Notes under the pieces: model-generated | Told to the model about the DNA's origin: nothing | Seen by the model: the letters and a program-made list of their open reading frames with translations, nothing else | Database searches by the model: none | Assembly (NCBI RefSeq): GCF_026210795.1 | Contig: NC_089431.1 | Span: 744,001 to 808,000, forward strand | Length of the DNA stretch: 64,000 nucleotides | Direction of reading: 5' to 3' | From: Rhizophagus irregularis | Taxonomy: Eukaryota | Part shown: positions 25,532 through 31,996 of the stretch, piece by piece | How positions within the stretch are numbered: position 1 is the stretch's first letter | Layout: every line of letters starts with the position of its first letter | Translations under genes and position numbers: made by a program

Positions 25532-26509
25532 TCACCTATTTTCCACCCCGCAGTCCTTGGACGAGGGGGCGAGAAGTTCACTATAGCGTGTCTGTAATCT
25601 TTCACAATACTCATTGATTTCTGCATTATACTTAAAAGTGCTATATAGCATTTTTTCGAGCTCCTCATAACTCACCTTTTTTTTAAATGTATCATCCTCG
25701 CCTGCCATTAAGGCGCTTTGCAAGTCCTGCGAGTCTTGAGAAACTTTGTCCAGAATCGATGAATCATCACATTCGGAAGTAGCGGTCGCACAATTCACCT
25801 CGAGCTTGTTCTTGACCTTATGCATAGTGACCGGAATAATATAATCTTTTCCATCGAAAGGAATCTTTAGCTCATCGGTTTTCCAGTCCATTGCGCAACC
25901 ATATTTCTTTAAAAGACGATTAGAAAATATTAATGTCGGCTTGTGATAATCTACAACTACAAAATCTTCATGGATGGTGCACCCAGGAGCTAAAGTGATA
26001 GGCAGATTGCGGACAACACCAATAGTTTCAACTGGAACAGTAGATATACCGCTAAGGTCATATTTTTCAGATTTATCTATTTTAACCTTAATACGATCGA
26101 CAATGTTTTTTGTTATAATCGGGGGTTCTGCTCCAGAGTCAACAGTCATAGCTGGGATCTTTAGGCGACCGATTTTGCACTTTATAGTAGTGGTGCTTGT
26201 AGGTGGCTCCTTCTTTTTGACGAAATTGATCTCCATAGGTTCATCCAAAGACTCCTCTTCATCTGAGTCAGGAGATATATTTTCAGCAAATGAGGGGGTA
26301 TCTCTTTGAGGTTCTTTCTTCGGCTCCATAGGAGCCACTATCTGTTTGGACATAATGAAACTGGAATCTTGGAAAAAATGTGGGGGGAAGATTAGTTTAA
26401 GCTCACTATGAAGGACTTTACGAATAGTCTCCTCTAGTGGTATTTCTCTCAGCTTGGCACTAGACATCTCTTTAGAGGATAATTTCTCGGATTCACTCCC
26501 CTTCTTCAC
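25532..26509 (-). CDS. Retropepsin-like aspartic protease
   Basis: AMTVDSGA catalytic motif and FVVVD..PTLIFSNRLL. Lies in the -1 frame relative to gag. Confidence 0.75.
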   Translation of the reverse strand: MKKGSESEKLSSKEMSSAKLREIPLEETIRKVLHSELKLIFPPHFFQDSSFIMSKQIVAPMEPKKEPQRDTPSFAENISPDSDEEESLDEPMEINFVKKKEPPTSTTTIKCKIGRLKIPAMTVDSGAEPPIITKNIVDRIKVKIDKSEKYDLSGISTVPVETIGVVRNLPITLAPGCTIHEDFVVVDYHKPTLIFSNRLLKKYGCAMDWKTDELKIPFDGKDYIIPVTMHKVKNKLEVNCATATSECDDSSILDKVSQDSQDLQSALMAGEDDTFKKKVSYEELEKMLYSTFKYNAEINEYCERLQTRYSELLAPSSKDCGVENR

Positions 26510-29500
26510 TTTTTTTTTGTCTTGGCAATATTAACAGTAATATCGCCTCCAAAATCGGAAGAATCATCTGAACTTGAATCAGAATCAGAACTATCGTTAG
26601 ATGAGGTATTGGAAGAAGAATCTGAATCTGAATCTGGTTCTATAGCGAGATTAACCTTACCCTTTTTAGACTTCTTACTTTTCTTTTTCTTCTTTACAGA
26701 GCACTTACGAGAAGTGTGTCCAAATCTACCGCACTTAGAACATTTCTTAATGGCACTTTTAACGGCGGATTTGATAGCATTTATTGTGGCACTATTTAGT
26801 GTCATGCCAGCCATACTGTCAGTAATATCATCCACAAGATCATAATTATAATCATCGCTAGGGGCTACGCTACCTTTCCCTCTTAATAGTTCACTTAAAA
26901 ATCGTCTAATAATAAGGTCTTCCCCTCTCTTATTGGCCGATTTTTTACTATTATCTAGAGTCTTAGTTGCTCGAGACATAGTCTCTTGAAAGGATTTAGC
27001 TATGGCTTCTTGTAAATCAGCCTTAGTGATATTTTCCTGACCAGAAGAAGATACCGGTGATAGATTTGGCACCGATTGTTGTAACGCCTGAATCCTACTA
27101 TTTACAATCCTATCAATATCTTCTGTAGTAATATTCTGGTGGGCAGGCGCTTTTGGTTTTGTCTTGATAATTGGCTGGTTATAAATATCCTCACCCAGAA
27201 GCAAATTATTCCTTTCTGTTTCAATCTCTTCCAGTGTCTCAATCAATTCATCATTTAAAGGTCTGTTTAAACCCAGTCGTTTCATTTCCAGCTTGTTTTC
27301 AGGAGTCAAGCCACGTATAAATTGTATTCTTTTTTCACGATCAGATATTCGAGCCCAGCTAGCATATTTATTTATCTTTCTATAGTAATTTCTAACTGAA
27401 TCAGATCCTTGAGTCAAAGTGCCAAAGATCAATTCCTGTTGCTCTCGAACAACTGTAGGATAATTCCTTTTAAACCAATAGATAACCTGACTAATATTGA
27501 TATCAGGAAGGACTATATGATTGTTATTATTTAAAGCTCCATTCGGGGCATTAGTTGCTGTACCAGCATCGACGAGACACCCACCAGCAAGAGACCAATC
27601 TTCATCTGCGTGAACATTATGTGCTGGGATAACTGTAGCGCCAGTAGCTCCAGCTGGCAATCCTGGTGGTGGAGTACCATCAGGCGCATTAATCATGGCG
27701 GCCGTTATGTTAGCATTATTTAGGGCCACTACGGCGGCCATATTTGCTAAAGCATTCCCACATCTTACATGATTCAATCGCCATTTTTTACCTTTAAGCT
27801 TATCTTCAGCCCAACGTGATAGGACCCCGGAAAATACTTATATATGTAAGGTACCAAGGTGCTTAGCCAACATAGAAAAATTTTATGATGTAAGAATTTT
27901 ATAATGCTTAATTTTGAGAAAATTTTATACTATGTAAGATAATTAAATTGCATATTTTTGGTATTATTTTAAAATACTAAGAGTTTTTAGTTGCTTATTT
28001 TTCATATTTATAGAACTTTTTAAAATATTATATATTGAATTTATAATTAATTTTTATTTTATTTTCACTAACGGTGAGTGTTGATTTTGTACTACATTTC
28101 ACAATTTTATATAAATACATAAACAAAATTTTTTTTTGATGAAATTTCAGTTTTTTTTTTCAATGTTTTATTAATTATCTTTCAACATGTATAATATAGT
28201 AATTTTATATTAAAAATAATACACTGAGTTTAATAAAAATTAAAAAGATACTATTTATTTTGTTAAATAAAATTACTGTAAATATGTTTTACTTTAATAT
28301 ATAATTTCACTACTCACCACTTTGGTTATATCAAATTGTCTTTTATGCTTAAGTAAGGTTGTTCAGCAAGTTAAATCTACTTGTATTTTAATTCTCATAA
28401 GGCTAAGTATGATATTTATATAGAAAAGCATATTTTTATAACGGTAATAACTTTTAAATTTTTCACTTTTTCGTCTACAACTTCAGAGCGTAATTACACC
28501 ACTTCAGTCAAATGAAATCGACTTTCTAAATTAATTGAAAGTTGTTCAGCAAGGTCGAAACTACTTATATATTAATTTTCATGAGTGTGGGTATAATACT
28601 TATGGAGAAAAGTGCATTTTTCATAACGGTACTAACTTCCGAATTTTTCATTTCTCCGTTTACAACTTCAGAGCGTAATTACACCACTTTGGCCAAATGA
28701 AATCGACTTTCTAAATTAATTGAAAATTGTTCAGCAAGGTCGAAACTACTTACATATTAATTTTTATGGGTGTAAGTATAATACTTATGGAGAAATTTAC
28801 ATTTTTTGTAATAGTATTAATTTCGAATTTTTCTTTTACTGTTTATTAACTTTATTAATTGAATATTGTTAATCTACTTGTATATTATGTTTAGTTTAGC
28901 TTCACAATGTATTGATCATATTTAAAATTGGATTTAATAAAATATATTAAATTAATAAATATATTTTATAAATTATATGTGTTATAATAAAAATTTAATT
29001 AGGTTAGAAGATTGATTTGCTTATTTTTATATAATTTTTAAGGTTAGATATCAACAATGCTTAGTGATCATAGTAAAAACCTATGCTTAGAGCTACTAAT
29101 AAAAAATATTTTTGGGACCTTACCTATATAAGTATTTTCCGGGGTCCTAACGTGATGCCTCATCTGTCAAGCAGGACCAGAATAGCTCTAAAGCTCTCTG
29201 TTTACCACCTGCATTAGCAGTAGTGATATTGGCCGCCGTAAGATAGAGTCTGTAATCTTTTATGAATTCATCTATATCTTCATCCGCTCTACCTGAGAAT
29301 CTTTTTGGTGCATATCCTGCCATCCTTAAATGTGGAAGATTATTTTGTAATGCGAATATTTGTCCTTGCAAATTTAAATTATTCTGGCGTTCTGCTTGGG
29401 TCTTATTTTTCCATTTCTCATATCGCTCATATAACCTGTCTCGATTAAATTCTAACAGACCTATATCCCCTCTACTTAGCTGTAAGTGGTGGGCATTTCG

Positions 29501-30319: not shown

Positions 30320-30349
30320 TCTTTTTTGTGATTATAAAAGAGAATCAGA

Positions 30350-31996
30350 ATGAGCCAACCACAAATCTTGATAGACCCTATTGAGGCTCAGAGAATTGAA
30401 AAAAATATCATATTGCGTGGAATATATTATCGCCCAACTGGCTATCATTCTAATCCCAAATCGTTAAGAGATGCATGTAAAAAAGAGGGGCACCAATTCC
30501 GCCTAAGTGAATGTAAAGATTTTTTAGAAAATCAGCAATCACACCAAATCTATATGCCCCCACCAAAACATATCCCTAGAGTCAGTTATGGGAAAATAAC
30601 ACGACCAAATTGTGTCCACCAGTGCGATATAATGTTCCTTACCCACGATTACTACAAAGGTAAGACCTATAAAGCGGTACTTAATATAATAGACTGCGCT
30701 TCCCGATATAAGGCTTCGGTTCCACTCACATCGAAGAAAAGTTCAGAAGTCGCTAAAGCATTTAAGAGAAAATATGGAGATCGAAATAACCCATTAACTT
30801 GGCCAAAACTTCTTCAATGTGATAATGGGCGAGAATGGATGGGCAAGACCTCTAGGCTAATGCAAGAGCATAATGTCACTATTCGAGTGATTGGTCCATA
30901 TTCCCATCGAGGTAATGGAATGGTGGAACGTTTCAATAAAACAGAAGGGGAAATGCTCTATAAAATTCAGTATGCTGTTGAGTCTATATCTTCTGATCCA
31001 AGATTAATAAGAACATGGGTTAGGCATTTGCCAAAGGTTGTCGATTACCTAAACAATTACCCCACACGCCTTATTAGAGCTCCGGGTACTTCAAAATGGA
31101 GATTAGCGCCTTCAGAAGCCATTTTATTGGAAGAGGTTGAATCTAAGCCATCAATATCATCAAAGCGACCTATTGGCAAAGATGAAAATACATTGAAGAA
31201 AGGTGATTCAGTTCGCTATCTTCTTGCAAATGCTGAATGGGAGGGAGGAATGGAGAATCAGAAAAGGGCTACAGATCCCACATACTCGCCTTCTATTCAT
31301 AAAATCCGAAAAATTGTGGTCTCTAAAAAGGAGCCTGTCCTATATTATCTCGGAAGTGATGACGATGAATTTACTCCAAAGCGGGGATTTGTGCGAGAAG
31401 AACTCATGCATTTGTCTCGTGATCCTGAGCTTCCCCTCCAAAGAATATTATCTGTAAATTTCGTTTATGTCTCCCCTATCAATAGCGAGTTTGATCATGC
31501 TAAAGATTATGCCAGAAGACGTGGTGGTCAGTGTCTAGGAAGGACTGGTCAAATAAATGGTCATGATGTATATCTTTGGTCTTGCGAAAATGGTGTACAC
31601 CAGTGGGAGTATCCATTAAAATATATCATGAAAAAATTCGAGTGGTGCCCTCTATGCCATCATACTCAAGAGCGTAAATGCCGATATATTTTTGAGGATC
31701 TACTAGGCAAGAAATTTCCACCATGTAGGGCTAAGTTCTTAGATGGACTACACTTGGATGGATATAATGAGGAATTACGACTTGCTTTCGAATACCATGG
31801 CCCTCAACACTATCATCATAATAGCCTATATCATCGGGAGAATGAAACTTTAGAAATACAAAAGATTCGTGATCAAAAGAAGCGGGATATATGCAAGAAG
31901 CAAAATATATGCCTTATCGAAATTCCATACACCGCTGATCTCCTATTCTATATCAGGCATACTCTAATCGAGAAAGGGTTCTTACCAAAGCAATAA
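30350..31996 (+). CDS. Polinton-type DDE (rve) integrase fused to a Zn-ribbon and PD-(D/E)xK nuclease
   Basis: HQCDIM (D), QCDNGRE (D), MVERFNKT (E) and KGDSVR. The C-terminus has [22 protein letters not shown] and DQKK..C. Confidence 0.85.

What the first reader, a model, noticed from the sequence alone, without database searches (positions are those of the whole stretch)
25532..31996. Gag-protease cassette head-to-head with a Polinton-type integrase, with no RT or RNase H
Seen: the gag ATG (30319, -) and integrase ATG (30350, +) are only 30 bp apart. The protease ORF ends at 25532 next to a convergent gene, with no RT, PBS, PPT or LTR visible. Such tight packing argues against a simple retrotransposon insertion. 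The Gag also has a long N-terminal coiled coil and an Ala/Asn/Pro-rich insert within the capsid-like region. Inference: a Gag co-opted by a DNA element.
Basis: partly seen in the sequence, partly recalled or inferred. Interest (0 to 1): 0.85.

Follow-up and report, generated by a model that had tools for sequence, protein, structure and literature searches.

The report
Fungal DNA transposons with retrotransposon capsid
In the root-symbiont fungus Rhizophagus, large DNA elements of the Polinton/Maverick type carry a retrotransposon-type shell protein and protease, no reverse transcriptase and no detectable DNA-virus shell gene, so they likely wrap their DNA in a borrowed retrovirus-style particle, a pairing I could not find described.

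Summary
Observation confirmed. The window is from Rhizophagus irregularis or a very close relative. This copy is decayed: gag has a stop and a 1.3-kb MITE. An intact homologue folds as a two-domain retroviral-type capsid, and no homologue continues into RT. The head-to-head gag/integrase pair recurs in two soil-contig families whose Gags are only about 27-45% identical to this one. In one family the pair lies inside an about 11-kb element with terminal inverted repeats and a protein-primed Polinton polymerase, where Gag is the only capsid-like gene. The window's version instead sits beside an asfarvirus-like polymerase and an A32-type ATPase; that linkage recurs at 7 of 9 polymerase loci I could check in one assembly. 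Capsid and protease are mostly under purifying selection. Two conserved A-runs suggest a Gag > Gag-PR > Gag-PR-zinc-finger frameshift ladder. Best reading: Glomeromycota Polintons, already known to lack jelly-roll capsids, replaced them with a Ty3-like Gag-protease. Particles and their cargo are inferred, not shown. This would also explain the 15-33 capsid-less asfarvirus-like polB copies per R. irregularis genome.

The parts
29714..30319 (-). gag piece 1: N-terminal coiled coil, ending in an in-frame stop (29716-29714)
   Evidence: homologues P0121 and P0124 read through this point
29149..29713 (-). gag piece 2: rest of the coiled coil, then capsid N-terminal domain helices 1-3 starting at about 29323
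27821..29148 (.). non-autonomous hAT-like MITE inserted in gag; about 37-bp TIRs, 8-bp TSD at 27813-27820 and 29149-29156
   Evidence: empty site in 3 of 4 runs
26506..27812 (-). gag piece 3: about 97-aa insert (27789-27498) inside the capsid NTD, helix 4 plus CTD (to about 27195), linker, CCHC zinc knuckle (about 26742-26701), Ser/Asp-rich and Lys-rich tail
26510..26518 (-). A9 run just before the gag stop; predicted -1 slip into the protease frame
25532..26530 (-). retropepsin (DSG at 26140-26132) followed by a 51-aa tail; no RT
25677..25687 (-). second T3A8 run after the protease; in relatives it precedes a 38-76 aa frame, often a zinc finger
30350..31996 (+). Maverick-type rve integrase (DDE residues present) fused to a C-terminal nuclease domain
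32063..32806 (+). A32-like ATPase; degenerate Walker A and an internal stop at 32522-32524 in this copy
19203..23036 (+). asfarvirus-like family B DNA polymerase; reading frame runs up to a second MITE copy (17885-19202), ATG ORF from 19485
   Evidence: linkage
23670..24740 (-). coiled-coil protein with a C-terminal hydrophobic segment; unassigned
24939..25463 (+). small unassigned ORF convergent on the protease
52743..56094 (-). predicted primase plus D5-like SF3 helicase; possibly the same element, linkage not shown
   Evidence: GC stays 0.32-0.41 from 19 to 56 kb apart from the MITE

Best explanation
This is a decayed copy of a multicopy Polinton/Maverick-type DNA element of arbuscular mycorrhizal fungi that carries a retrotransposon-type Gag-protease next to its integrase and has no reverse transcriptase, and the Gag likely serves as its particle shell in place of the jelly-roll capsid. 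Shown: the capsid-type fold of an intact homologue (predicted model), zinc knuckle and retropepsin; no RT; conserved head-to-head linkage to a Maverick-type integrase; linkage either to a protein-primed polymerase inside TIRs or to an asfarvirus-like polymerase plus A32 ATPase; purifying selection in most comparisons. Inferred: the element's own polymerase copies its DNA; slips at two A-runs give much Gag, less Gag-PR and a little Gag-PR-zinc finger; Gag assembles an intracellular shell that the protease matures; the knuckle and zinc finger hold element DNA, probably with integrase, for delivery to other nuclei of the aseptate mycelium, where the integrase inserts it.
For: Fold: top 37 of 50 rows are Gag-type capsids (best PEG10 CTD Z 9.5, rmsd 2.9, 85 aligned; Ty3 NTD Z 6.3, rmsd 3.7, 74 aligned; first unrelated row Z 4.6), from a model with pLDDT 85. 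No RT: 0 of 18, 0 of 35 loci. Head-to-head with the integrase in 6 of 6 loci that reach upstream of gag, forming two families. Consecutive gag/integrase identifiers in four assemblies. An about 11.25-kb TIR-bounded element holds pPolB, INT, gag-PR, F-box, an 81-aa ORF, a TBP-like ORF and a 218-aa ORF. Asfarvirus-like PolB lies within 7 accessions of gag or INT at 7 of 9 loci; 0 of 200,000 random placements reach 4. dN/dS 0.02-0.27 for capsid and about 0.07-0.18 for protease in most unsaturated pairs. Glomus Polintons lack MCP, penton and cysteine protease (PMC4028283 Table S1), and no MCP was found in five R. irregularis strains (PMC10640383).
Against: No particle, expression or cargo data: the runs laid were contigs and their RNA status is a guess. 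Gag shells normally co-assemble with RNA (established knowledge). The 11-kb type shows no ATPase, so an ATPase is not required by all members. The A-run length varies among copies over 99.5% identical, the protease is in the -1 frame in only 9 of 16 cases, and no stimulatory hairpin was found. Some dN/dS rows are 0.56-1.16. The 11-kb element is inferred from two overlapping contigs and its host is unknown. The window element's ends were not found, so a divergent jelly-roll gene among its unassigned ORFs is not excluded. Individual Z-scores (9.5 or less) are middling for helical domains.
Confidence: 0.6

Rival explanations
1. Gag-PR is a conserved core gene of the DNA element but does not package its genome. 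It acts as a scaffold or nucleic-acid chaperone at the replication site, carries element mRNA in the manner of Arc or PEG10, or interferes with competing Ty3 elements.
For: Explains the same conservation and selection. The closest folds include domesticated Gags (PEG10, Arc, MOAP1). The long coiled coil and the 68-118 aa insert differ from ordinary Ty3 Gag.
Against: An active-site protease is kept, together with a two-step frame ladder that ends in a zinc finger; this fits a maturing particle. Gag sits where animal-type Mavericks with the same INT/pPolB layout carry structural genes.
Confidence: 0.25
2. A truncated or non-autonomous Ty3 retrotransposon landed in a Polinton and is a passive passenger.
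For: The Gag-knuckle-protease order and the best PDB sequence match to Ty3-G Gag-Pol (E 0.0013) show a retrotransposon origin. This copy is broken, and a real Ty3 pol lies 7.6 kb away.
Against: No LTRs. Same position and 10-30 bp spacing across families with 33-43% capsid identity and two different polymerases. Purifying selection. Three intact 1069-aa copies, 98.5-99.5% identical, on three contigs of one assembly.
Confidence: 0.05
3. The element's RNA is packaged by Gag and reverse-transcribed in trans by RT from co-resident Ty3 elements.
For: CCHC knuckles bind RNA (established knowledge); Ty3 RT is present in the same genome.
Against: TIRs, an intact 1317-aa protein-primed polymerase and genes on both strands point to DNA-to-DNA copying. 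No LTR was found.
Confidence: 0.07

Closest known systems
Polinton-1_GI, P_Gi1.1 and P_Gi1.2 of Glomus intraradices (= R. irregularis)
   Same: Same host; 11,954 and 11,019 bp against at least 11.25 kb for the pPolB type here; no MCP, penton or cysteine protease; ATPase in one (PMC4028283 supplement 1, read whole). These may be the very elements seen here.
   Different: No gag is mentioned in the passages or table I saw. The window copy uses an asfarvirus-like PolB, not pPolB.
Animal Mavericks/Polintons (contigs L036, L038-L041, L045, which I read as animal-type elements binned into prokaryotic genomes)
   Same: Integrase 40-44% identical; sister group in the tree; same convergent INT/pPolB layout; pPolB 43% identical; A32 ATPase.
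   Different: They carry PLA2-domain and A32 genes, plus ORFs I read by recalled motifs as cysteine protease and jelly-roll MCP (Pfam gave no hit). No gag homologue matched any of these 10 loci.
Ty3/gypsy (Metaviridae) Gag-PR and domesticated PEG10/Arc
   Same: Two-domain capsid fold, CCHC knuckle, retropepsin, frameshifted protease.
   Different: No RT, RNase H, LTR or Ty3-type integrase; about 330-aa N-terminal coiled coil; 68-118 aa insert in the NTD; third frame is a short zinc finger or helical peptide.
Dispersed Asfarviridae-like polB loci of R. irregularis (PMC10640383)
   Same: 15-33 copies per genome, strain-variable, no MCP. The window PolB's best PDB matches are entries cited in ASFV polymerase papers (E 7e-198).
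   Different: The paper reads them as traces of asfarvirus infection and never uses the words gag, integrase, Polinton or Maverick. Here many are linked to gag-PR and INT.
Bidnaviruses and cruciviruses (recalled, not tested)
   Same: A replication module joined to a capsid from an unrelated virus group.
   Different: Their capsids are jelly-roll types; none uses a Gag capsid.

Membership tests
Polinton/Maverick | Retroviral-like (rve) integrase of the Maverick clade | tested here: met
Polinton/Maverick | Protein-primed PolB (11-kb relative) | tested here: met
   L010: intact 1317 aa, 43% identical to the L038 polymerase; motifs judged from recall, no Pfam or PDB hit
Polinton/Maverick | Protein-primed PolB (window copy) | tested here: not met
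   The adjacent polymerase is asfarvirus-like. A pPolB half at 7124-8659 lies 17 kb away, beyond other elements.
Polinton/Maverick | Terminal inverted repeats | tested here: inconclusive
   Met for L010/L012 (about 100 identical nt); not found for the window copy, whose left end is cut by a MITE
Polinton/Maverick | 6-bp target-site duplication | not testable with these tools
   Contigs end inside the TIRs; no genome is held
Polinton/Maverick | A32-like packaging ATPase | tested here: met
   Window 32063-32806 (degenerate; E 3e-6 to the L045 A32); homologues P0048 and P0050 hit Pox_A32; not seen in the 11-kb type
Polinton/Maverick (polintovirus state) | Double jelly-roll MCP, penton, cysteine protease | tested here: inconclusive
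   No Pfam or tblastn hit, but Pfam also missed the presumed MCP of L045. In the 11-kb type the only unassigned ORFs are 218 and 81 aa, and the 265-aa ORF is TBP-like.
Ty3/gypsy LTR retrotransposon | Two-domain Gag capsid with CCHC knuckle | tested here: met
Ty3/gypsy LTR retrotransposon | Retropepsin after Gag | tested here: met
Ty3/gypsy LTR retrotransposon | RT, RNase H and integrase downstream on the same strand | tested here: not met
   0 of 18 proteins, 0 of 35 loci; the integrase is upstream, on the opposite strand and of Maverick type
Ty3/gypsy LTR retrotransposon | LTRs | tested here: not met
Ty3/gypsy LTR retrotransposon | PBS and PPT | not tested
   No LTR to anchor the search
Asfarviridae-like giant virus | Asfarvirus-type PolB | tested here: met
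Asfarviridae-like giant virus | RNA polymerase subunits, MCP, capping enzyme, VLTF3 | tested here: inconclusive
   No such Pfam hit among 33 window ORFs scanned; element ends unknown

The most novel reading that the evidence does not exclude
A new kind of virus: integrating dsDNA elements of mycorrhizal fungi that copy themselves with Polinton or asfarvirus DNA polymerases but encapsidate their DNA in a retroviral-type Gag shell. It would be a capsid swap between the DNA-virus and reverse-transcribing worlds, and would account for both the capsid-less Glomus Polintons and the capsid-less asfarvirus-like polB loci.
Probability: 0.5. Interest if true: 0.95.

Novelty: categorically new. Interest (0 to 1): 0.86.

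Why it matters
Gag-type capsids are tied to reverse-transcribing elements or to host genes domesticated from them (established knowledge). A self-replicating DNA element that keeps Gag, protease and a frameshift ladder but no RT would break that rule. It offers one answer to two published puzzles: why Glomus Polintons lack capsid genes (PMC4028283) and why R. irregularis holds 15-33 asfarvirus-like polymerases but no major capsid gene (PMC10640383). Mavericks are expanded in Glomerales (PMC11952901) and recently active in R. irregularis (PMC8647823), so this may be a major route of DNA movement between nuclei in a globally important symbiont. It is directly testable. The elements themselves are known; the gene combination is what appears new.

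Tried and rejected
No whole genome is held, so element ends, TSDs and copy number could not be determined. IMG/VR gave no relatives with gag, integrase or the integrase alignment; the diverse gag alignment was too variable to scan. The one metagenome scan used only a zinc-knuckle pattern, so it samples the family narrowly; 3 of its 35 loci (L029, L033, L035) look like unrelated knuckle hits. No stimulatory hairpin after the first A-run: z between -0.8 and +1.3 in 12 of 13, -2.2 in one, against simple base shuffles. Splicing instead of frameshifting is not excluded, as GT follows the run in several families. Contig depth did not define element ends or show expression. Foldseek was busy. No complex prediction was obtained. 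The Atlas gave no clear family for the coiled-coil/TM ORF. The degenerate retropepsin-like ORF at 49115 matches the gag-linked protease only weakly (E 0.013). The neighbouring Ty3 pol was rejected as the missing pol. The original Polinton paper was not held (ids recalled), and the Pritham 2007 paper and Repbase were not consulted; a gag annotation there would lower the novelty.
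Full report
Observation. The coordinates hold: 30 bp separate the gag and integrase ATGs, and 68 bp separate the protease stop from a convergent ORF. The integrase is 93% and the gag C-half 99% identical to R. irregularis proteins, so the host is that arbuscular mycorrhizal fungus or a very close relative. This copy is decayed. Gag has an in-frame stop and a 1328-bp MITE with an 8-bp TSD; contigs from 3 of 4 runs join across the empty site. The ATPase has a degenerate Walker A and a stop that contigs of other copies lack. A second MITE copy with unmatched flanks joins an unrelated Ty3 pol to the polymerase gene, so the element's left end is lost.

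The protein is a Gag. An intact homologue (P0141, 69% identical to the window over the matched part), folded with a 60-sequence alignment, gave pLDDT 85. Against 48,161 PDB chains the top 37 of 50 rows are retroviral, retrotransposon or Gag-derived capsids, covering both domains (PEG10 CTD Z 9.5, rmsd 2.9, 85 aligned; Ty3 NTD Z 6.3, rmsd 3.7, 74 aligned); the first unrelated row has Z 4.6. These Z values are middling one by one; the uniform list is the evidence. A profile search finds Ty3-G Gag-Pol (E 0.0013), DDI1 and PEG10, and the Atlas finds Retrotrans_gag clusters (0.93). The insert lies inside the NTD, is 68-118 aa in 46 of 46 rows that span the capsid, and is as conserved as the core (0.50 against 0.50-0.52).

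No RT follows. All 18 homologues found among proteins of 761-2170 aa are at most 1096 aa and none has an RT domain (only the 7985 best candidates were scored). The best 150 of 241 representative hits reach at most 893 aa. None of 35 metagenome loci matches the window's own Ty3 RT or integrase at E 0.01. Eight loci extend at least 480 nt past the protease; where a next gene was identified it is an F-box or TBP-like gene.

The neighbourhood is conserved. All 6 loci that reach upstream of gag have the integrase head-to-head. They form two families (L010, L011, L012, L017, over 99.5% alike; L026, L032), with Gags about 27-45% and integrases 44-46% identical to the window's, and start codons 10 bp apart or overlapping. 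Consecutive identifiers show the same pair in annotated genomes: GBC12503/12504, PKY57254/57253, CAB4425236/4425235 and R. diaphanus C1646_761954/761955. In a FastTree tree of 54 integrases (329 columns) the gag-linked ones fall in one group (support 0.84), sister to animal-type Maverick integrases, with the window's Ty3 integrase on a branch of 3.2 (rooted on that distant sequence, so the root is weak).

Two element types share the module. Type 1: L010 and L012 overlap over 6013 nt at 99.9%, and the start of L010 is the reverse complement of the end of L012 (about 100 identical nt). This implies a TIR-bounded element of at least 11.25 kb with an intact 1317-aa protein-primed-type polymerase, integrase, gag-PR, F-box, an 81-aa ORF, a TBP-like ORF (top three rows TBP, best Z 8.9, rmsd 7.3, 177 aligned, from a low-confidence model) and a 218-aa ORF. 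Gag is its only capsid-like gene. The host of these contigs is unknown, but the related L028 gag is 93% identical to R. irregularis GBC25860, and three intact 1069-aa copies in that assembly are 98.5-99.5% identical. Type 2, the window: the polymerase matches PDB entries cited in ASFV polymerase papers at E 7e-198, against 2e-18 for Pol delta. It is multicopy across Glomeromycota genera. In one assembly 7 of 9 listed PolB loci lie within 7 accessions of a listed gag or integrase, and 0 of 200,000 random placements reach 4. In R. clarus 3 of 3 lie within 9. In pooled accession series the counts were 1 of 8, 2 of 14, 0 of 8 and 0 of 1; at most 15 members per cluster were listed, so misses say little. 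Six of 8 listed gags of that assembly are near no listed partner; they belong to the type-1-like cluster, whose partners I did not look up.

Selection and expression logic. Nei-Gojobori dN/dS between the window and L001, L002, L025 and L026 is 0.02-0.27 for capsid parts, including the insert, and 0.33-0.45 for the linker; protease pairs give about 0.07-0.18. Against this: 0.62-0.99 for capsid parts against L005 and L006 (a different capsid subfamily, dN up to 0.8), 0.65-1.16 for three low-divergence gag pairs in the L011 family, 0.82 for one protease pair with four changes, and 0.56-0.71 for N-terminal pairs. An A-run of 9-10 precedes the gag stop in all 13 sequences listed. The protease is in the -1 frame in 9 of 16 cases, +1 in 4 and in frame in 3 (one of these a script artefact). 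A second T/A run follows the protease; in 9 loci its -1 frame encodes a 38-76 aa peptide with a zinc-finger pattern, and the two scanned hit zf-C2H2 (E 1e-4 and 4e-4, below the curated cut-off). Run length differs among near-identical copies and no hairpin was found, so programmed slippage is inferred.

Mechanism. The most economical reading is that a capsid-less fungal Polinton lineage took up a Ty3-like gag-pro and uses it as its shell. Decreasing amounts of Gag, Gag-PR and Gag-PR-zinc finger are what a maturing particle needs, and a C2H2-type finger suits double-stranded DNA (established knowledge). In an aseptate, multinucleate mycelium an intracellular particle would be enough to reach new nuclei (inference). 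No step from assembly onward is shown.

Literature seen. PMC4028283: passages and supplement 1 whole. PMC10640383: part 2 of 5 and passages; its supplements were not read and may list genes near the polB loci. Listing and abstract start only: PMC11417396, PMC12721172. Nine topic searches listed no paper whose title or abstract start describes Gag in Polintons. The 2006 and 2007 founding papers and Repbase were not seen.

Verdict. Real, conserved and well supported at the gene level (about 0.9). Use as a DNA-carrying particle is about 0.5-0.6.

Noticed in passing
window 7124-8659 (-): N-terminal half of a Polinton protein-primed polymerase, 61% identical to L010; a remnant of a type-1 element, cut off beside a 187-bp tandem repeat (6550-7110).
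   Followed up: partly
window 14949-19202: Ty3 RT-RNaseH-integrase cut within its protease by a second MITE copy whose flanks do not match, suggesting a deletion or recombination between two MITE insertions.
   Followed up: partly
window 36057-48940: Possible cargo between the ATPase and the helicase: split Uma2 nuclease, three Crinkler N-terminal domains with their downstream ORFs, and an LRR gene. Whether the element carries candidate effectors is open.
   Followed up: no
window 49115-56094 (-): Degenerate retropepsin-like ORF, tyrosine-recombinase-like ORF (by recalled motif) with a partial duplicate, and primase plus D5-like helicase; either the element's replication end or a separate element.
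   Followed up: partly
window 56380-59532: hAT transposase element (a joint from 56379 to 59171 in 3 of 4 runs) ending in a nested palindrome at 58804-59532.
   Followed up: no
P0129; L005, L006: The window-type N-terminus and tail are joined to a different capsid subfamily (33% identical to P0123), suggesting capsid-domain swapping between families.
   Followed up: partly
window 31550-31996 (+): The integrase C-terminus is a nuclease domain (PHROG homing-endonuclease hits), fused in the window's clade and absent from type-1 integrases.
   Followed up: partly
L012 6527-7324; L034 1958-2770: Type-1 elements encode a divergent TBP-like protein, unusual for Polintons as far as I recall.
   Followed up: partly
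window 30320-30349; L010 5304-5313: The head-to-head gap is too short for ordinary promoters. The window's gap holds a TATA-like AT run readable on both strands, so promoters probably overlap the opposite gene or gag starts at an internal Met.
   Followed up: no
L036-L045: Maverick-like eukaryotic contigs are binned into prokaryotic genomes of the GTDB collection.
   Followed up: partly
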